64,000 bases of DNA from a virus. Every line of letters begins with the position of its first letter. Positions within the stretch are counted from its first letter, which is position 1. Positions 933-8,282 of this stretch are shown here, in pieces. The stretch lies in UHGV virus genome UHGV-0174779. One strand, 5' to 3'. Below the pieces are notes generated by a model. It was not told the origin of the DNA. It searched no databases and worked only from the letters and a program-made list of their open reading frames with translations. A program made the translations under genes and the position numbers.

Positions 933-1685
933 TTATGGACGAGATGTACGAATGCCATAAATGTCAGGCAGGCTGCTCTGAAGTCGAGTCATGTTGTTCG
1001 GAATTGCGATAGGTGAACCTGAATACTCCTGTTTCTTATTCTGCTCTACCATTTCATCAAGGATAGCTTTTCCTAATGCTGACCATTTCTGAACACCGTT
1101 ATCATCTTGAACAAACAGACAAGCATGACGTAGGGTGAAGTACAGAAGAAGTTCTGGTGCGATAGTAAGGATAGCACTAGTGTCTGCGTCTTCATGGAAT
1201 TCCGGTGGGTCTGCATAGTAACTAAGAATTACTGAGTTTTCTGCTGGAATCAAAGGGCTTCCATCATCAGGGTAGTATGGAGTATCTGCTTCAATGCTAG
1301 GGTAGAAAATGAAACGACTCCCGAAACGAGCAAAATTAACAGGTTGGTTATTCCAGTGAGATGGGTTAATTGTTCCATGCTGCCTACGATAGCTAATCTC
1401 CTCAGGAGATGTTACTTGGAAGATTGTACCATCTTTGGCTCTCATCATCCATTGAGCTTCTAAGTAATCAGGAGGAATATAAGCCACTCCATCTTTGATA
1501 TCTAAATAGACTTCTTTTTCCAGAGGAGGAATACGTAAGTTACGATAAATCTCTTTCTCTGCAAAGTTAATAAAGTTTGGAATTTGATTAACAAATTCGT
1601 CATCATCTCGATCGGCCCACAAGGCAACAGCTTTCTTAAGCCAGCCATACGTGTTAATCGGGTTTTGTACTTCTGGCATGCTCAT
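933..1685 (-). CDS. Hypothetical virion or tail-associated protein
   Basis: ORF 933..1781; start moved to ATG 1685 (MSMPEVQ...) which has AAGGAG 8 nt upstream and avoids the overlap with the HNH gene. Sits between capsid module and tail fibre. Confidence 0.5.
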   Translation of the reverse strand: MSMPEVQNPINTYGWLKKAVALWADRDDDEFVNQIPNFINFAEKEIYRNLRIPPLEKEVYLDIKDGVAYIPPDYLEAQWMMRAKDGTIFQVTSPEEISYRRQHGTINPSHWNNQPVNFARFGSRFIFYPSIEADTPYYPDDGSPLIPAENSVILSYYADPPEFHEDADTSAILTIAPELLLYFTLRHACLFVQDDNGVQKWSALGKAILDEMVEQNKKQEYSGSPIAIPNNMTRLQSSLPDIYGIRTSRP

Positions 1686-2187
1686 ATTTAACTCCTTTCC
1701 AGTTTGTACCATTAATGATGAGAGATATTGTGCTTTTGTTAACACCAAATTTCCTAGATAAGGCTCTAGCGCCGAATTCACTATCTCTCGGTTTATAGTT
1801 CTCTATACAGAAGAGGACTTGCTCTTTAGTAAGTTTTGAATTTGGATTTTCTTCAAGACTTTTAACTTTCATAAGACCTGTATCTACAGAATGCTGGCAA
1901 TTTTCACTACCTGTGCACCATTCAAGATTCTCAAGTCTGTTGTCATCTTTAACCCCATTCTTGTGGTTAATCTGATCTTTACCTTCTATTCTAGGTATAA
2001 ACATTTCAGCTATGACTCTATGCTCTAGATATGATTTCTTCTTGAAGGTCAGTATACGATACCCCCTGCTATTAACACACCCAGCACGTTGTCCTTTCTG
2101 TTTATTGTAGATATTACTCATTGACCAGAAAAGGTGCCCAGTATTTGGATCGTATGTAAAAGCTCCTCTGAAATCTGGCATCGCCAT
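1654..2187 (-). CDS. HNH homing endonuclease
   Basis: 177 aa; HNH-type motif HKNGVKDDNRLENLEWCTGSENCQHS with C-terminal helix-turn-helix-like tail; free-standing inside the late operon. Confidence 0.7.
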   Translation of the reverse strand: MAMPDFRGAFTYDPNTGHLFWSMSNIYNKQKGQRAGCVNSRGYRILTFKKKSYLEHRVIAEMFIPRIEGKDQINHKNGVKDDNRLENLEWCTGSENCQHSVDTGLMKVKSLEENPNSKLTKEQVLFCIENYKPRDSEFGARALSRKFGVNKSTISLIINGTNWKGVKYEHARSTKPD

Positions 2188-2254: not shown

Positions 2255-2285
2255 ACAAGAAAAGCCACCCGAAGGCGGCTTTATT
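2255..2285 (-). terminator. Rho-independent terminator (minus strand)
   Basis: On the minus strand AAGCCGCC-TTCG-GGTGGCTT stem-loop followed by UUCUUGUUUU, directly after the Ig-like ORF stop. Confidence 0.5.
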
Positions 2286-2316: not shown

Positions 2317-3636
2317 TTATACTACTTTTGGAGTAGCAGGAATAGAACAAGTAGCTGTAACTGTAGTTTGAGATTTATGTGTTGCCTTGACTGTAACAGT
2401 TTCAGCACCCGGGTCATCTGCAAGAGTGAGACTACCAGAGCTGTCTACTGTACCAGCAGCAGTTGGAGTTACTACATAATTGAAGTTAGTTGCAGCATTA
2501 TTACTCGTAAACATATCAGCAAAAGGTACTACATCACCACCAACTTTAGCCTCTACAGTTTTAGCTGTGATGGTAGCTTTAGGAACTACACCACTGATTG
2601 TCCCTGTTGCAGTAACTGAGGTCTGGGTTTTATGAGTAGCTTTGATAGTAACATTACCAGTAGCGTTAGCTGCTAAAGTGACAAGACCTGTATTTGCATC
2701 AATAGAGGTTGCCATATTAGAAGGGTTGGCTACGAAAGTGTAATTGGAAGCAGAAGAGTTAGTTGCTGTGAATAAGGCAGCAAATGTAACAGTGTCTCCA
2801 CCAATTTTACCAGTTACTGTCTTAGCGGTCAAATCTGCTTTAGGAGTAACGTTGGACAATGTACAAGTTTCTGTTGCATTGGGTTGTGTTTTGTGAACAG
2901 CTTTAACAACAGTGCTTCCTGATGCATTAGCTGAAAGAACTACAGAACCACCAACGAAAGATCCATTAGCTTCAGGATTCACTGTAACTGTATAATCAGC
3001 TGCTGAGGAGTTGACAGTAGTAAACATGACATTGAAAGATACTGAATCACCACCAACAAGAGCAGTAGTTATTGGACCTTTAGTCACAATTCCAGCTTTA
3101 GCAGCAACTCCAGTAAAGGAAGTAGTAGCTGTAACTGAGGTCTGAGTCTTATGTGTAGCTTTAACTGTCACTGTTCCAGATGCATTGTCATCTAAACCAA
3201 ACACACCCGACAGATTAAAAGAACCTGCTGACGGGGGAGTGATTTCAAATTCATAATCAGAGAATGCTGAGTTAGTTGCCGTAAACATTGTGGTGAATGC
3301 TGTAGTGCTGCCACCAATCTTACCAGTAATAGGACCTTTTGATACAATGGTCGCTGGTTCATAGATAGAATTAACAGTAGCCGTTCCTTTCTTGGATGAC
3401 TTCGTTGCCGTAATAGTTGCTGGGGTTTCTTGCGACGCACTCGGTGCAGTATATAGCCCAGAAACAGAAACAGCCCCACCGCCCTCAACGGACCAACTAA
3501 ATCCGGTTGTGCTTGTGGAGCCGTCACTCATTTCTGCTGTAGCTGTAAACTGCTGAGTAGCCCCCGTCGGAAGACTTGCAACCGACGAAGGACTAACAGT
3601 TACGGAATCTACTGTTACGCCGCCGCTACCTTTCCC
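2317..3636 (-). CDS. Ig-like (BIG2-type) domain region, probably made as a C-terminal extension of the major capsid protein by -1 frameshift
   Basis: Four tandem ~90-aa repeats (VTVKATHKTQTSVTAT..., TKGPITxxxGG). The frame stays open upstream of the first ATG (3531) to 3696, overlapping the capsid gene 3' end in the -1 frame; no Shine-Dalgarno before ATG 3531. Confidence 0.55.
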   Translation of the reverse strand, partial: GKGSGGVTVDSVTVSPSSVASLPTGATQQFTATAEMSDGSTSTTGFSWSVEGGGAVSVSGLYTAPSASQETPATITATKSSKKGTATVNSIYEPATIVSKGPITGKIGGSTTAFTTMFTATNSAFSDYEFEITPPSAGSFNLSGVFGLDDNASGTVTVKATHKTQTSVTATTSFTGVAAKAGIVTKGPITTALVGGDSVSFNVMFTTVNSSAADYTVTVNPEANGSFVGGSVVLSANASGSTVVKAVHKTQPNATETCTLSNVTPKADLTAKTVTGKIGGDTVTFAALFTATNSSASNYTFVANPSNMATSIDANTGLVTLAANATGNVTIKATHKTQTSVTATGTISGVVPKATITAKTVEAKVGGDVVPFADMFTSNNAATNFNYVVTPTAAGTVDSSGSLTLADDPGAETVTVKATHKSQTTVTATCSIPATPKVV

Positions 3637-4676
3637 GCAGCAGTGAACAGCACACCGGAAGCATACGGGTTGCGGTGACGCAGACCAACTTCCATTTCAA
3701 TCATCCACTTCTCGTAAGAACCATCTTTTGCCAGTTCAGTACGTTTCGGAGCACGAAGAACCATCTGAGTCCAGTCAGCGCTACGGAAGAAGTAAACTGC
3801 ATCGGTAGGCATCCAACGGTTAACGATGATTTTGTAGCTCTGGCCCAGCGGGTCAGTGATGCTGTTAACTTCGTAGATGAACTGCTTGGTGTTCTCAAAG
3901 ATACGCTTACGTGAACCCTGAGTGTTTTCTTGCAGACCAGCGAAGATCTTAGCATGAGCCGGGTTAATCATGATGATATCTGCTTCAGAACCAGCGGTAT
4001 ACAGTTGCAGAGTCATATCAAAGATATCAGCTTCGTCAAAACCAATGTTAGTGGTCGGGTTAGAAGCATTCTGTGCAACTTTAACAGTTACTGCACCAGT
4101 GTCCGGGTCAGCAGGACCATTCTTGGTCTTGTCAACAACACCACCAGCCAGACCACCGTGAGCACACAGGAACTGGAATGCACCAGTCTTACGAGCTGCA
4201 TGGGTGTCATTCAGACCAACAACAGCAGGATCAGTTGCAGAGTTAGTCAGGTACTGGTCAGCCAGAACGTCGGTACGAGCCTGACCGGACAGAAGGATTT
4301 TCTCGAGGTCACGCTTGATCTCTTTACCTTTCTTCTCCAGCTGATACATCAGTTCACGACCACGACCATAGTTAGCGGTGGTGTTAGCAGTATCAGAAAC
4401 ACGAACAACCTTACGCAGAATCTGAGTAACGTTAGATTTGATAACAGTCGGTTTCATTTCGCCGTCTTCAGCACGAGAGCCTTCGACGTGTGCGTTATTA
4501 CCGTCAACGCTTGCCAGTGCATCGGTCTGCCAGCTAAAGATAGTCTGGTTGATAGACTCTTTACCGGTCATGGATACGAACGGGGTATCCTGAGGGGACA
4601 GAACAGAAATCCAGTTAGCAAAAGAAAGTTTTTTACCATTCTGGTCATACGATACAAATAAAGTTGGATTAGCCAT
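3615..4676 (-). CDS. Major capsid protein
   Basis: 353 aa ORF immediately downstream of scaffold and portal genes, strong codon bias, AAGGAG-like RBS; assignment by gene order and size, not by a verified motif. Confidence 0.6.
   Translation of the reverse strand: MANPTLFVSYDQNGKKLSFANWISVLSPQDTPFVSMTGKESINQTIFSWQTDALASVDGNNAHVEGSRAEDGEMKPTVIKSNVTQILRKVVRVSDTANTTANYGRGRELMYQLEKKGKEIKRDLEKILLSGQARTDVLADQYLTNSATDPAVVGLNDTHAARKTGAFQFLCAHGGLAGGVVDKTKNGPADPDTGAVTVKVAQNASNPTTNIGFDEADIFDMTLQLYTAGSEADIIMINPAHAKIFAGLQENTQGSRKRIFENTKQFIYEVNSITDPLGQSYKIIVNRWMPTDAVYFFRSADWTQMVLRAPKRTELAKDGSYEKWMIEMEVGLRHRNPYASGVLFTAAGKVAAA
3630..3636 (-). promoter_or_regulatory. Candidate -1 ribosomal frameshift slippery heptamer G_GGA_AAG
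   Basis: In capsid frame ...GCG GGA AAG GUA...; slipping to GGG AAA G enters the Ig-like frame, which continues GSGGVTVDSVTVSPSS... (start of a BIG2-like domain). Confidence 0.5.
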
Positions 4677-4716
4677 GTTATTTTAGCTCCTATACTATTA
4701 ATAATTAATTTGTCGA

Positions 4717-5793
4717 TTAATCTACGAGGAATTTGAATGCGTCTTCGTGACTAACGCGACCCTCTGCGAATGCCTTGGCAACTTTAGCGTTGTCGGGCTT
4801 ATTGGAAGTACGAGACTTTGCAGCATCAGACTTCACAACCTTGCGTGGAGCACCGGGACGTTTAATCTTAGCCATCACCTGTTGCTTACCTTTATCAAAT
4901 TGGTATGCTTTATGGAGAGCTAGGAAAATAGACGGACGGTTTTCCTTCAATACTTCTTCTTCAGTAGCACCTAAGTCAATTGCGTATTGCATTAAGTTTT
5001 GATATAAGTTTTCATCCCAATTTGGAATCTCACGTTTCAGAATATTAACACATTCAATACTCTTGGCTTGGAAAGCTTCCTGCTCTTTAGCTGCTGCTTC
5101 CTGCTTAATACGGACCTGAGCCTGTTCAAGCTGTTGACGGCGAGCTGTGTACTTCTCTAGGAAACGTTTGTTTTCAACATATGCTTGAGGATCTTCTACT
5201 GCAAGCTTGTCCCAATCAAAACCGTTATAATCTTCAATTACTCGGTCTGCTTCTAAAGACGCTAGTTCTAATACATCCTTCAAACCTACTACACGTTCCT
5301 CGAATGCTTCCATATGACGCTGAAGAGTTGATTCTCGTTCTGTCATATCAGCACCAGTAAGATAGCCATTAGAAAGTTCTTCAATAGTCATCTCACGTCC
5401 ATCAGGAAGGGTGATAACGGTTTCGTAGTCTACATCAAAGACTTCACCTTCACCGTCAGCAGAATCATCTTCATATCCTGCATCACTTGAATCTTCTTCC
5501 TCTTGCTCTTCTGCTTCAGAGGATTCATCTTCATCTTCTTCGACTTCGCCTTCCTCTTCACGATCTTCCCAACCATCTTCATCTTCGAACTTAAGCTCAT
5601 CGCTTTCACCGAGAAGGTCGGTATCAAAGTCAAAATCGTCACCGTCTTTTTCCGGGAACTCATCGTCAATGTCCACTTCTGGTTCTTGTTCAGATTCTAA
5701 TCGACCGAGTTCTTCTTTGAAAGAACCTTTCAGGTCATCCAGTTGGAGGAAAGATTTAAAATCGTTCGGGTCAATATAATTATCTTGTGGCAT
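4717..5793 (-). CDS. Scaffolding protein (putative)
   Basis: 358 aa, extremely acidic N-terminal half (D/E runs) and helical basic C-terminus; sits between portal and capsid genes. Confidence 0.5.
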   Translation of the reverse strand: MPQDNYIDPNDFKSFLQLDDLKGSFKEELGRLESEQEPEVDIDDEFPEKDGDDFDFDTDLLGESDELKFEDEDGWEDREEEGEVEEDEDESSEAEEQEEEDSSDAGYEDDSADGEGEVFDVDYETVITLPDGREMTIEELSNGYLTGADMTERESTLQRHMEAFEERVVGLKDVLELASLEADRVIEDYNGFDWDKLAVEDPQAYVENKRFLEKYTARRQQLEQAQVRIKQEAAAKEQEAFQAKSIECVNILKREIPNWDENLYQNLMQYAIDLGATEEEVLKENRPSIFLALHKAYQFDKGKQQVMAKIKRPGAPRKVVKSDAAKSRTSNKPDNAKVAKAFAEGRVSHEDAFKFLVD

Positions 5794-6029
5794 TATGAAA
5801 CATCTCCTGCACTATTGATAGCAGCTTTTATGACCTCTTTTAAGCTACCCACCATTTTATACTTTTGATAACAATCTTCGCGTTTCTTATTCTCATGAGG
5901 TTCAGTTTGAACTATCTCTGTCATGAGTCTTTCTTTCAATGCCTCTAATGCTGCGTCAAGACTGCCGTTAAGATTGAGAGCCGCCAAAGCGGCGGCGTGC
6001 TCTTTATTGAATTGATGCCTAATGTTCAT
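5793..6029 (-). CDS. Hypothetical protein
   Basis: 78 aa ORF between portal and scaffold genes, start and stop coupled to neighbours. Confidence 0.4.
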   Translation of the reverse strand: MNIRHQFNKEHAAALAALNLNGSLDAALEALKERLMTEIVQTEPHENKKREDCYQKYKMVGSLKEVIKAAINSAGDVS

Positions 6030-6038
6030 TCGACGTCC

Positions 6039-8282
6039 TTACTTTTTACTTCCAAGACGTTTGCCTGGAATCCGTGAATCTTTGAGAGAAGCTTGTTGCT
6101 CTTTCTTAGTTACATTTGCTTCTTTCTTCTGGAGTTCCAAAGTCTTATTTTGAATGCGTGATTGCTCATTAAGCTTCTCTTGGTCAACTTGATGGGACAT
6201 AACCATCTGCAATTCTTTCAGTACAGACTCATACTGACGGACCTGCTGCTGCATAAGAGCTAACTTGTGCTTAGCTTGTTCCAGAGTTGCACTGTTATCT
6301 TCTTTACGGTTTTCCAGAGTCATAGCATCTGCTGCATTTTCTTGCTTGAACTGCAACTCTTCCTGACGAAGACTTAACTCATCCGCAGCTTTCTGCTGTT
6401 CGAATGTAGTACGTTCACGCTGGTCGAATGCATCAGCAATCATCTTCTGAGAAGAGGCCTGTACGTTCTCAACCTGTGCTTTAGTCATCTCAAGCTGGAG
6501 GATTTCCATCGGAGAAGGCTGCGGAGGCTGATACTGTTCCAGAGGCAGAAGGTATTTGTGAGTGTCCTTAATACCCATCAACTCAAAGATCTGTGCAGTC
6601 ATGTAACGGTCTTGCTCCAAACCAAAGAGAGGTGCTAACTGTGCATCTGCTGCAATCAGCTGTTTCAAGCTAATCAGTTTCTGTGCACGTTCTGCTTTCT
6701 CATTAGGAGAAATAGCTACAACAACTTGAAGATTATGACGAGCTGGCAATTGTTTAGGGTTTACCTGAACCATACCACGAGGGGTTTGTACCTCAATAGG
6801 AACTTCACCATTTTCTCGGATAAGGCTGTAAATACCACGCATCAATTCAACCATACCATTGTGAGCAATGTTACGACATACCATACGGAGACGGTTCTGT
6901 GCAGCATTCATCATCAAACCTACGGTTGCATAAGCGTTATCATTCTTAAACACATCAGGGTTGATACCCATGCCAAGTTTAGTTACACCTGTACGTGTCT
7001 CTTTAAGCTCCTCAGACATGCCTAGGAGGCCGTCAATACCTTGAGGTAGGTTATGGTATGGGAACAGGTCAATAGCGTCCTGACGTTCCATTTCAACCAC
7101 TCCACCGGGGCGGTTATCAAGCAGAGAGCGACGGTCGTATGCACCAACAAGAGCTTTGTATCGACCATAGTTAGCATTGTTGACGTTATCAATATAACCA
7201 CGAACTAACGCGGTACGTAAATCCTGAATATCTTTCGTAATGTCATAGACTGATTGACCATAGAAGGAACCCGGAATCGGATACGGGCAGAAGGTTACAA
7301 ACGGAATGTGAGTTACTTCTTCAGTGTGAAGGATATGCTCACCAGCTTGAATAACCTGATAGAGTTTAGACTCTTTATTCTTATCTAGAACACCTGTACG
7401 AATGTAGTGCTCATAAACCCAAACCATAGAAGCAATATCTTCGGTATCTGTGCCAATATCAGCATCAATATCCTGACGCCAGTCAGTACGAGACCAAGCA
7501 ACTGTAGATTGAGTGGTATCCATCGTGTCTGTCCAGTCGTTGAATGCTTCAATCTCATCTTTAGGGAAGCCCATAGCAACCAGATCTTCTTTAGAACGAC
7601 GTACACGATGACAGAAGTATTGTGCATCTGCAAAAGAGGTAGCATGTTCATCAACAAAGATTTGCTCTGAAGGAACATATTCAACTTTCACACGTTTAAC
7701 AGTTTGTTCATAAGTAACTTTAACATCTACTGTACCATCTTCATTCTCTTCAGTGAAGATTTCCAGATTCTTAAGTCCACCAGCTTCTAGTCCCTGAACA
7801 TATGCAGCCAATGCTTCCGGTGGTACACCTTCAGCTTCTTCAGTTTGAGTAGAAGTGTGCTCATCCCAATAGTATTTGATAAAAGAGTTACGAGTAACCA
7901 GGCATTCTTGTGCAGCAGAAGAGATAATATTGTATCCCGGATTGTCACGCAGAAGAATTTGGTTAACTAATTTAGTTGCTACATCAGCAGCATCAGAATC
8001 CTGTTGGTTGTCAGCTACGAAAGTAACCGCTTCATCACCAGAACAGAATACGTTAATAATATCTTGCAGTGTACCGTTAACAGATTCCCAAACAGTACGA
8101 TCTACCCAACTAGAGCTGCCAGCAGTTACTGGTGCAGGTAAGTTACCATAGAAATATTCCCAAGCTTCACGAGCATAGCCCTTAACAGCCGTGTCAACGT
8201 AACCTTGAGCGTAATTAAAACGACGTTGAAGGTCAACACGTAACTCGTCCAACACCTCTTCACTATATTTTTGCTTAGCCAT
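6039..8282 (-). CDS. Portal protein (putative) with C-terminal coiled-coil extension
   Basis: 747 aa ORF directly downstream of terminase large subunit; C-terminal ~150 aa Q/E/K-rich heptad-like region; assignment by synteny and size. Confidence 0.6.
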   Translation of the reverse strand: MAKQKYSEEVLDELRVDLQRRFNYAQGYVDTAVKGYAREAWEYFYGNLPAPVTAGSSSWVDRTVWESVNGTLQDIINVFCSGDEAVTFVADNQQDSDAADVATKLVNQILLRDNPGYNIISSAAQECLVTRNSFIKYYWDEHTSTQTEEAEGVPPEALAAYVQGLEAGGLKNLEIFTEENEDGTVDVKVTYEQTVKRVKVEYVPSEQIFVDEHATSFADAQYFCHRVRRSKEDLVAMGFPKDEIEAFNDWTDTMDTTQSTVAWSRTDWRQDIDADIGTDTEDIASMVWVYEHYIRTGVLDKNKESKLYQVIQAGEHILHTEEVTHIPFVTFCPYPIPGSFYGQSVYDITKDIQDLRTALVRGYIDNVNNANYGRYKALVGAYDRRSLLDNRPGGVVEMERQDAIDLFPYHNLPQGIDGLLGMSEELKETRTGVTKLGMGINPDVFKNDNAYATVGLMMNAAQNRLRMVCRNIAHNGMVELMRGIYSLIRENGEVPIEVQTPRGMVQVNPKQLPARHNLQVVVAISPNEKAERAQKLISLKQLIAADAQLAPLFGLEQDRYMTAQIFELMGIKDTHKYLLPLEQYQPPQPSPMEILQLEMTKAQVENVQASSQKMIADAFDQRERTTFEQQKAADELSLRQEELQFKQENAADAMTLENRKEDNSATLEQAKHKLALMQQQVRQYESVLKELQMVMSHQVDQEKLNEQSRIQNKTLELQKKEANVTKKEQQASLKDSRIPGKRLGSKK

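What the first reader, a model, noticed from the sequence alone, without database searches (positions are those of the whole stretch)
3600..3700. Probable -1 ribosomal frameshift fusing the major capsid protein to four Ig-like domains
Six codons before the capsid stop lies the classic slippery heptamer G_GGA_AAG (3630-3636). The -1 frame is open from 3696 through the capsid gene end and continues without a start codon or Shine-Dalgarno into the 404-aa Ig-like ORF. The residues encoded across the junction (GSGGVTVDSVTVSPSSVASLPTGATQQF) look like the true beginning of the first BIG2-type domain. This predicts a minor capsid-Ig fusion of about 785 aa decorating the head, analogous to T7 10A/10B.
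Basis: partly seen in the sequence, partly recalled or inferred. Interest (0 to 1): 0.75.

Follow-up and report, generated by a model that had tools for sequence, protein, structure and literature searches.

The report
Known capsid frameshift adding Ig-like domains
The phage's major capsid gene ends with a slippery GGGAAAG site that lets a minority of ribosomes slip back one base and add a chain of Ig-like domains to the capsid protein; the prediction is correct, but the feature is already published for this phage group (phiEco32-like kuraviruses).

Summary
All genes here are on the minus strand. The 353-aa major capsid protein (MCP) gene (4676..3615) carries G_GGA_AAG in the right phase at 3636..3630, 12 nt before its TAA. 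The -1 frame is open from 3696 and runs 437 codons to 2317. The fusion is 786 aa (81.7 kDa).

The Pfam Big_2 domain starts 27 residues upstream of Met-3531. That Met has no Shine-Dalgarno and is Lys or Leu in several relatives. The start-less linker evolves as coding sequence (dN/dS about 0.18). All 23 related Gordonclarkvirinae junctions examined keep the heptamer.

It is not new. The window is a phiEco32-like kuravirus. GenBank annotates the same joined CDS in its closest relative, phage Paul ("Frameshift at GGGAAAG"). Papers describe it for phiEco32, SU10, YF01 and Privateer, with mass-spectrometry or gel support.

One correction: the extension has five Ig-like modules (one Big_2 plus four ~86-aa repeats), not four.

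A small extra: an RNA hairpin about 38 nt downstream of the slip site shows compensatory base changes, and I did not find it described in the papers I read.

Verdict: real, correctly interpreted, already known. Low interest.

The parts
3615..4676 (-). Major capsid protein gene (zero frame): 353 aa, 38.7 kDa, HK97-fold SU10_MCP family.
   Evidence: ORF list. Pfam SU10_MCP PF17236, E=9.4e-77. PHROG 1328 major head protein. 100% amino-acid identity to the MCPs of SGF2 and phiEco32.
4686..4691 (-). Shine-Dalgarno AGGAGC, 9 nt upstream of the MCP ATG. It is the only ribosome-binding site serving both products.
   Evidence: Read directly from the sequence. Paul's annotation assigns one RBS to both MCP CDSs.
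3630..3636 (-). Slippery heptamer G_GGA_AAG, the -1 tandem-slippage site. Zero frame reads GGA-AAG (Gly348-Lys349); after the slip it reads GGG-AAA and then GGT.
   Evidence: Conserved in 23/23 related junctions. Named as the slip site in Paul's GenBank note and in PMC9965538, PMC4281155 and PMC7881722.
3615..3617 (-). TAA stop of the short (major) capsid product, 12 nt after the heptamer.
2317..3630 (-). -1 frame extension: 437 codons plus a stop, translated only after the slip. Fusion CDS = join(4676..3630, 3630..2317), 786 aa, 81.7 kDa.
   Evidence: dN/dS about 0.18 in the part upstream of any start codon.
3379..3612 (-). First Ig-like domain (Pfam Big_2), extension residues 7-84. It begins upstream of Met-3531.
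   Evidence: Pfam PF02368, E=5.7e-9, 36.2 bits against a cutoff of 22.8.
2320..3357 (-). Four tandem ~86-aa Ig-like repeats: 3357..3097, 3096..2839, 2838..2578 and 2577..2320.
   Evidence: Repeat boundaries. 42-51% identity to the first repeat. PHROG 13745 'Ig domain containing protein', 4 stretches. AF2 model of one repeat has pLDDT 90. Foldseek matches Big_2 domains, the Ig-like domains of T5 pb6 and lambda gpV, and the phi29 capsid protein.
2261..2282 (-). Rho-independent terminator (AAAGCCGCCTTCGGGTGGCTTT followed by a T-rich tail) closing the MCP and extension transcription unit.
   Evidence: Paul has an annotated terminator at the equivalent place.
3561..3591 (-). Conserved RNA hairpin (CCUUCGUCGG / CCGACGGGGG, -16 kcal/mol) inside the extension coding region, about 38 nt 3' of the heptamer. 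Possible modulator; function unproven.
   Evidence: Fold z=-3.1. 99.4% of cells paired over 19 distinct sequences, with one pair GC:8/UA:8/AU:3 and another GC:13/UG:5.
3594..3617 (-). Weak AU-rich hairpin UAACAGU-N10-ACUGUUA (-5.1 kcal/mol). Its 5' arm starts with the MCP stop codon, 12 nt (9 nt in phiEco32-type phages) 3' of the heptamer. The arms are essentially invariant, so there is no covariation evidence.

Best explanation
This is the -1 programmed ribosomal frameshift of the kuravirus (phiEco32-like, Gordonclarkvirinae) major capsid gene. Most ribosomes read ...GCG GGA AAG GUA GCG GCG GCG UAA and release the 353-aa capsid protein. A minority slip back one base while tRNA-Gly and tRNA-Lys occupy GGA-AAG and re-pair with GGG-AAA. 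These ribosomes continue in the -1 frame for 437 codons and make a 786-aa capsid protein. Its C-terminus carries a Gly/Ser linker, one Big_2 domain and four further Ig-like repeats. Inferred steps: the long form co-assembles at low copy number into the prolate head; its Ig-like chain projects from the surface; and that chain probably mediates weak adhesion to carbohydrate-rich surfaces. Shown here: the site, phase, open frame, domain continuity, lack of an own start, coding-type evolution and conservation. Taken from the literature on relatives: two MCP forms in virion preparations. Not measured: slip efficiency and the function of the extension.
For: The heptamer phase and frame continuity are confirmed. 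Big_2 begins at extension residue 7, 27 residues before the only ATG. That ATG has no Shine-Dalgarno and is not conserved (AAA/AAG Lys or CTA Leu in other clades), and no other start is shared. The linker evolves under purifying selection in the -1 frame. GGGAAAG is kept in 23/23 relatives, while the extension among the 14 full-length related loci varies from 178 to 545 aa, apart from SU10. Proteus phage J3S, whose MCP is only 57% identical, has GGGAAAG abutting its stop and a different, 169-aa extension in the -1 frame. Salmonella phages 7-11 and PKM.Hi.22.6 reach the same end with two MCP paralogs, one short and one directly fused to extra C-terminal domains, so a short-plus-long pair recurs across the group. 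A single RBS and a single strong terminator bracket the unit. The GenBank record of Paul joins the CDS at GGGAAAG and cites the phiEco32 work. PMC9965538 describes the same slippage in YF01 and 'other group phages'. PMC4281155 reports MCP forms of 38.5 and 55.4 kDa by MS in SU10. PMC7881722 reports the longer form in Privateer virions and cites its observation in phiEco32 and SU10. Background knowledge, not tested here: G_GGA_AAG is the heptamer of the lambda G/GT frameshift, which works at a few percent in E. coli without a strong stimulator.
Against: No protein data exist for this particular phage. No canonical stimulatory structure lies 5-9 nt downstream. The best-supported hairpin is about 38 nt away, and the nearer one is weak and invariant. 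The SU10 cryo-EM study saw no extra capsid density and, as summarised by the YF01 paper, no long band on its gel, although SU10's -1 frame is closed after 11 codons. Many GenBank records annotate the Ig ORF as a separate gene, but those calls come from automated ORF finding.
Confidence: 0.92

Rival explanations
1. The Ig-like protein is an independent gene product initiated at Met-3531 (404 aa). It attaches to the head non-covalently as a decoration protein, and the heptamer is coincidental.
For: An ATG exists at 3531, and the ORF listing reports a 404-aa ORF. Many database records annotate a separate 'Ig domain containing protein'. The SU10 cryo-EM authors treated gp10 as a possible separate minor capsid protein.
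Against: There is no Shine-Dalgarno before the ATG. The Met is Lys or Leu in other clades, and no alternative start is conserved. Big_2 would lose its first ~27 residues. The 33 codons upstream of the Met are under purifying selection in that frame. The heptamer is conserved in 23/23 relatives.
Confidence: 0.04
2. Transcriptional slippage by RNA polymerase at the GGGAAAG tract produces a minority mRNA with the frames joined, rather than ribosomal slippage.
For: Both mechanisms would give the same protein. Nothing computed here distinguishes an RNA-level shift from a ribosome-level shift directly.
Against: The homopolymer runs are only 3 nt (GGG, AAA), far below the runs of about 7-9 A or T known to support polymerase slippage (background knowledge). 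The exact X_XXY_YYZ phase is conserved, which matters only for tRNA re-pairing.
Confidence: 0.02
3. The frame break is an assembly or sequencing artefact or a recent pseudogenising indel. The true gene would be either one continuous MCP-Ig ORF or a dead remnant.
For: Single-base indels are a common error. SU10 carries a 1-nt insertion in this very region that closes the -1 frame.
Against: The same frame arrangement, with the MCP stop 9-15 nt after the heptamer, appears in 23 independently sequenced related genomes. The extension is under purifying selection. The literature reports a dominant short MCP plus a minor long form.
Confidence: 0.01

Closest known systems
phiEco32 gp11/gp12 and its orthologues in Kuravirus, Suseptimavirus and Nieuwekanaalvirus (Paul CPT_Paul_009/010, YF01 gp8, SU10 gp9/gp10)
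   Same: The MCP is orthologous (93-100% amino-acid identity). The GGGAAAG heptamer sits at the same ...TAAGK codons. The direction is the same (-1). The first Big_2 domain after a Gly-rich linker is the same. The transcription unit ends at a terminator after the extension.
   Different: Only the length of the extension differs. This phage has Big_2 plus 4 repeats (437 aa), against 178 aa in phiEco32, 264, 351, 372 and 457 aa in others, and 543-545 aa in YF01 and Paul. The genome as a whole is about 92% identical to the nearest records over about 75% of a 25-kb stretch, so it is probably an undeposited or new species-level relative.
Proteus phage Privateer / J3S (Grimontviridae) capsid frameshift
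   Same: GGGAAAG lies at the end of a homologous MCP (57% identity), and a -1 extension gives a longer minor capsid protein detected in virions.
   Different: The heptamer abuts the stop codon directly. The extension is a different sequence of 169 aa, resembling the domain annotated as immunoglobulin I-set in Aeromonas phage LAh_9.
T7 / T3 gene 10A/10B
   Same: A -1 frameshift near the 3' end of the major capsid gene yields a minor, C-terminally extended capsid subunit that co-assembles into the head (PMC7881722 and PMC9965538 make the same analogy).
   Different: The capsid sequence family is different: Pfam assigns SU10_MCP here and no T7 capsid family was hit. From background knowledge, the slip site differs and the T7 extension is short rather than a five-module Ig-like chain.
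Lambda G/GT tail-assembly-chaperone frameshift
   Same: The heptamer G_GGA_AAG is identical, and the host translation system is the same (background knowledge). A slippage rate of about 3.5% is quoted in PMC9965538.
   Different: The genes and purpose differ: a tail chaperone ratio rather than capsid decoration.
Salmonella phages 7-11 / PKM.Hi.22.6 duplicated capsid genes; phi29 gp8
   Same: The outcome is the same: capsid protein carrying C-terminal extra domains. The AF2 repeat model matches the phi29 capsid protein chain.
   Different: No recoding is involved. 7-11 and PKM.Hi.22.6 encode a short and a long MCP as separate paralogous genes. From background knowledge, every phi29 subunit carries the Ig-like domain.

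Membership tests
Kuravirus-type MCP -1 programmed ribosomal frameshift (phiEco32 gp11-gp12) | X_XXY_YYZ heptamer (GGGAAAG) in the zero-frame phase near the 3' end of the MCP gene | tested here: met
   3636..3630, phase G_GGA_AAG, 12 nt before the TAA.
Kuravirus-type MCP -1 programmed ribosomal frameshift (phiEco32 gp11-gp12) | The MCP is an orthologue of phiEco32 and SU10 MCP | tested here: met
   Pfam SU10_MCP E=9.4e-77. 100% identity to phiEco32 MCP over residues 1-352.
Kuravirus-type MCP -1 programmed ribosomal frameshift (phiEco32 gp11-gp12) | The -1 frame is open across the overlap and continues into an Ig-like extension that has no start signals of its own | tested here: met
   Open from 3696 to 2317. 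No ATG, GTG or TTG before Met-3531. No Shine-Dalgarno. The Met is not conserved.
Kuravirus-type MCP -1 programmed ribosomal frameshift (phiEco32 gp11-gp12) | The slip site is conserved at the orthologous position across the group | tested here: met
   23/23 related junctions. 100 phage records hold the junction region.
Kuravirus-type MCP -1 programmed ribosomal frameshift (phiEco32 gp11-gp12) | The region upstream of any start codon is translated (coding-type evolution) | tested here: met
   Variable columns by codon position are 6/27, 5/28 and 17/28. dN 0.14, dS 0.78.
Kuravirus-type MCP -1 programmed ribosomal frameshift (phiEco32 gp11-gp12) | A long MCP form is detected at the protein level | not testable with these tools
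   Reported for relatives only: SU10 forms of 38.5 and 55.4 kDa; Privateer, and phiEco32 by citation. The primary phiEco32 paper (PMID 18294652) could not be read.
Canonical stimulated -1 PRF (slippery site + spacer of 5-9 nt + stable hairpin or pseudoknot) | A stable downstream structure at canonical spacing | tested here: inconclusive
   The weak invariant hairpin (-5.1 kcal/mol) lies 12 nt away (9 nt in phiEco32-type phages). The stable, covarying hairpin (-16 kcal/mol) lies about 38 nt away. The stem that encloses the slip site shows no covariation.
Big_2 bacterial Ig-like domain (PF02368) | The sequence matches the family model above the gathering threshold | tested here: met
   Extension residues 7-84: 36.2 bits against a cutoff of 22.8.
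Big_2 bacterial Ig-like domain (PF02368) | The four downstream repeats also belong (by sequence or fold) | tested here: inconclusive
   Only 1 of 4 repeats hits Big_2 (E=1.8e-5). The profile gives weak matches to intimin and T5 pb6. The AF2 model (pLDDT 90) matches Big_2-CBM56, T5 pb6, phi29 gp8 and lambda gpV with TM about 0.6 and Foldseek E about 2e-3. The fold is Ig-like; sequence membership is marginal.
T7 gene 10A/10B | Homologous capsid protein family | tested here: not met
   Pfam assigns SU10_MCP only, and no T7-type capsid family appears at E<=1. This is an analogy of mechanism, not membership.
Separately encoded head-decoration protein (Hoc-like) | Own translation-initiation signals and a complete domain set in the free-standing ORF | tested here: not met
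   No Shine-Dalgarno, a non-conserved Met, and a first domain truncated by 27 residues if started at Met-3531.

The most novel reading that the evidence does not exclude
The hairpin at 3591..3561 may be a non-canonical, long-spacer element that tunes how often ribosomes slip, or that otherwise controls expression of the long form. It lies about 38 nt downstream of the heptamer. A synonymous Ser third position covaries perfectly with the second position of a Pro/Glu/Gln/Leu codon (GC, UA, AU). An invariant AU-rich hairpin that contains the MCP stop codon may act with it. I did not find this element in the kuravirus papers I could read. Together with the 1-to-5 copy variation of the Ig-like repeat, it would give the group two independent ways to adjust capsid decoration: how many long subunits, and how long each one is.
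Probability: 0.2. Interest if true: 0.35.

Novelty: already known. Interest (0 to 1): 0.15.

Why it matters
It matters mainly for annotation. Most database records of these phages still list the Ig-like ORF as a separate gene with an arbitrary start, and it should be a joined CDS as in phages Paul and YF01. Biologically, the frameshift sets the ratio of plain to Ig-bearing capsid subunits on an unusual prolate head. The Ig-like chain is a candidate for adhesion to mucus or cell surfaces, which is relevant because kuraviruses are being used in phage therapy of E. coli. None of this is new in principle. Only the downstream covarying hairpin and the repeat-number series add anything to what is published.

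Tried and rejected
- The primary phiEco32 paper (PMID 18294652 / PMC2587145) is not held, so its protein evidence is cited second-hand through.
- Single-sequence AlphaFold of the whole 437-aa extension gave pLDDT 40 and was discarded. A model of one repeat, using the four repeats as the alignment, worked (pLDDT 90).
- An IMG/VR scan for the junction gave only 3 loci. Two have the contig lengths of NJ01 and phiEco32, so they are probably those genomes. Diversity was therefore sampled from GenBank phage records instead.
- Mirzaei et al. proposed a stem-loop enclosing the slip site (CUGCUGC...GCGGCGG). It folds, but it has no compensatory changes and is broken in LAMP and KBNP1711. Its 5' arm would also lie inside the ribosome at the moment of slipping. 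I rejected it as a classical stimulator.
- A closing helix GUAGC/GCUAC that would bring structure right up to the heptamer is not conserved when the aligned sequences are read by eye. Rejected.
- An upstream Shine-Dalgarno-like stimulator of the dnaX type: none is visible in the 30 nt before the heptamer.
- Stop-codon readthrough is impossible because the extension is in a different frame.
- Terminator-based separation of the two ORFs: no convincing terminator lies between them. The match at 3492..3475 has 3 GC pairs and a poor T tail.
Full report
**What is in the sequence**

All genes in this part of the window are on the minus strand. The 353-aa ORF at 4676..3615 ends ...F-T-A-A-G-K-V-A-A-A-stop. 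On the coding strand the end reads GCU GCG GGA AAG GUA GCG GCG GCG UAA. G_GGA_AAG therefore occupies 3636..3630 in the X_XXY_YYZ phase, 12 nt before the stop codon.

The -1 frame has its last upstream stop just above 3696. From there it runs without interruption to the stop at 2319..2317. The first possible start codon in that frame is the ATG at 3531. No ATG, GTG or TTG precedes it, and the 18 nt before it contain no Shine-Dalgarno.

A slip at the heptamer gives MCP residues 1-349 followed by 437 residues. The product is 786 aa and 81.7 kDa, against 38.7 kDa for the short form.

**Is it more than chance?**

The heptamer itself is not rare. GGGAAAG occurs 11 times in the window on both strands. 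Only this copy lies in the zero frame of a long ORF.

I also counted in-frame X_XXY_YYZ heptamers in ORFs of at least 150 codons. There are 37. This is the only one whose -1 frame continues more than 30 codons past the zero-frame stop: 437 codons, against a median of 4.

**What the proteins are**

The short ORF is a major capsid protein of the Pfam SU10_MCP family (E=9.4e-77; PHROG 'major head protein').

In the extension, Pfam Big_2 matches residues 7-84 (36.2 bits, cutoff 22.8). The first Ig-like domain therefore starts 27 residues before Met-3531. A protein begun at that Met would lack the domain's first strands.

After this domain come four tandem repeats of about 86 aa, 42-51% identical to the first repeat. 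PHROGs labels them 'Ig domain containing protein' with 4 stretches. One of the four hits Big_2 on its own (E=1.8e-5).

An AlphaFold model of one repeat, using the four repeats as its alignment, reached pLDDT 90. It matches Big_2 domains, the Ig-like domains of T5 pb6 and lambda gpV, intimin and invasin, and the phi29 capsid protein (TM about 0.6). The extension therefore has five Ig-like modules, not four.

**Where the window comes from, and what is annotated there**

The region matches phiEco32-like podophages of the Gordonclarkvirinae (Kuravirus and sister genera). The best hit is Escherichia phage Paul, at 94% identity. No record matches closely over 25 kb; the nearest are about 92% identical over about 75% of the stretch. 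The phage is therefore a relative that is not in the collection.

Paul's GenBank record carries a two-piece 'major capsid protein' CDS. Its note reads 'Frameshift at GGGAAAG; Frameshift in PhiEco32 major capsid protein product as well (PMID: 18294652)'. YF01 has the same joined CDS.

**Comparative test**

In 23 related junctions (14 full-length loci, one IMG/VR contig and eight short junction loci) GGGAAAG is present at the same ...TAAGK codons in every case. About 100 phage records hold this junction region.

The extension begins G(S)GGVTVDSVTVSP... in nearly all of them (LAMP and Bas94 begin VGSATVDS...). Its length among the full-length loci is 178, 179, 180, 264, 351, 372, 437 (this window), 457, 543 or 545 aa. 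The main steps of about 86 aa (178, 264, 351, 437) fit differing numbers of the repeat.

Met-3531 is Lys in the phiEco32, LAMP, IME267 and KBNP1711 types and Leu in TH42 and Bas88. No other start is shared.

The stretch between the MCP stop and Met-3531 evolves as coding sequence in the -1 frame. Variable columns at codon positions 1, 2 and 3 number 6/27, 5/28 and 17/28. Against phiEco32, dN is 0.14 and dS is 0.78.

A strong terminator follows the extension at 2282..2261. Nothing convincing lies between the MCP stop and the extension; the only consensus match there (3492..3475) is weak.

More distant relatives point the same way:

- Proteus phage J3S, with an MCP 57% identical, has GGGAAAG directly before its stop and a different 169-aa extension in the -1 frame.
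- Salmonella phages 7-11 and PKM.Hi.22.6 instead carry two MCP paralogs, one short and one directly fused to extra C-terminal domains.

The pairing of a short and a long capsid subunit therefore recurs, by recoding or by duplication.

**Literature**

- PMC9965538 (YF01, 2023) describes the GGGAAAG slippage. It gives a 353-aa and an 892-aa MCP, says the same holds for other group phages, and notes that SU10's -1 frame is closed early.
- PMC4281155 (SU10, 2014) identifies the site 'as in phage phiEco32' and reports MCP forms of 38.5 and 55.4 kDa.
- PMC7881722 (Privateer, 2021) finds the longer form in virions and states that both forms were observed in phiEco32 and SU10.
- PMC9509320 (SU10 cryo-EM) saw no density for extra capsid proteins. 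That agrees with the 1-nt insertion that truncates SU10's -1 frame after 11 codons.

I could not read the primary phiEco32 paper.

**Mechanism**

- *Shown by sequence:* there is a tandem-slippage site whose P-site and A-site codons (GGA, AAG) can re-pair as GGG and AAA.
- *From established knowledge:* X_XXA_AAG sites are intrinsically shifty in E. coli, and G_GGA_AAG is the lambda G/GT site. PMC9965538 quotes its efficiency as about 3.5%.
- *Inferred:* a few percent of capsid subunits carry the Ig-like chain, they co-assemble into the prolate head (715 MCP copies in SU10), and they project outward.

The function of the extension is not established for this group. Weak adhesion to carbohydrates is the usual proposal for phage Ig-like domains (discussed).

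**Stimulatory elements**

I found no canonical one.

- The stem that encloses the slip site, proposed for SU10, folds. It shows no compensatory change.
- A weak AU-rich hairpin (UAACAGU-N10-ACUGUUA, -5.1 kcal/mol) starts at the stop codon, 12 nt after the heptamer (9 nt in phiEco32-type phages). Its arms are almost invariant.
- A stable hairpin at 3591..3561 (-16 kcal/mol, z=-3.1) is paired in 99.4% of cells across 19 distinct sequences.

In that stable hairpin one pair is GC:8/UA:8/AU:3 and another is GC:13/UG:5. The 5' base of the first pair is the synonymous third position of a Ser codon (TCG, TCT or TCA). The 3' base is the second position of a Pro, Glu, Gln or Leu codon (CCG, GAG, CAG or CTG).

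This is suggestive of a conserved RNA structure. However, it lies about 38 nt from the heptamer and rests on few independent events, so its role is open.

**Verdict**

The corrections are minor: five modules rather than four, and about 82 kDa rather than 85 kDa. The feature is already known for this phage group and is annotated in the nearest relative. Interest is therefore low. The only points that go beyond what I found published are the covarying downstream hairpin and the repeat-number series.

Noticed in passing
window 3561-3591 (-); alignments A2/A3: A stable RNA hairpin lies inside the extension coding region, about 38 nt 3' of the slip site. It shows compensatory changes: one pair is GC/UA/AU and another is GC/UG. 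In the first pair a synonymous Ser third position covaries with the second position of a Pro/Glu/Gln/Leu codon. The kuravirus papers I read do not mention it.
   Followed up: partly
L004 (SU10) about 4070-4085, against L003 (phiEco32): SU10 has a 1-nt insertion (GACACTGTCTACTG against GACAGTGT-GACTG) that closes the -1 frame after 11 codons. Yet the 2014 paper reports a 55.4-kDa MCP form by MS. This could be a sequencing error, stock heterogeneity or a genuine loss.
   Followed up: partly
L007 (Salmonella phage 7-11) 1982-2920 and 3001-4758; L014 (PKM.Hi.22.6) 3001-3945 and 4020-6356: These phages carry two tandem MCP paralogs. One is short and one is fused in frame to extra C-terminal domains. 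In 7-11 an annotated terminator lies between them. This is a duplication-based alternative to the frameshift.
   Followed up: partly
L008 (Aeromonas phage LAh_9) about 3900-4190: The MCP ends ...CUG AAG GUA AAG CCC UAA. The -1 frame is open across the end and encodes the Ig domain annotated as a separate I-set protein. The site is a degenerate heptamer (GGUAAAG) in place of GGGAAAG, so this may be an unannotated frameshift, perhaps less efficient.
   Followed up: partly
window 2320-3357 (-) and relatives L001, L009, L010, L015-L019: The main length steps of the capsid extension (178, 264, 351 and 437 aa) differ by about 86 aa. This fits copy-number variation of the Ig-like repeat, about 1 to 5 copies across kuraviruses. 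The window has 4 copies.
   Followed up: partly
window 1654-2187 (-): An HNH_3 endonuclease ORF (Pfam E=5.8e-13) lies between the capsid-extension terminator and the SU10_adaptor gene (within the 933..1781 ORF). It overlaps the upstream part of that listed ORF. IME267 has an HNH gene at the same spot, while Paul and phiEco32 do not, so it is probably a mobile homing-endonuclease insertion.
   Followed up: partly
GenBank records seen: Most deposited kuravirus genomes annotate the Ig-like region as a free-standing gene. The start codons are inconsistent (GTG or ATG at different positions), and some records omit the MCP or the extension entirely. Only Paul and YF01 carry the joined CDS.
   Followed up: no
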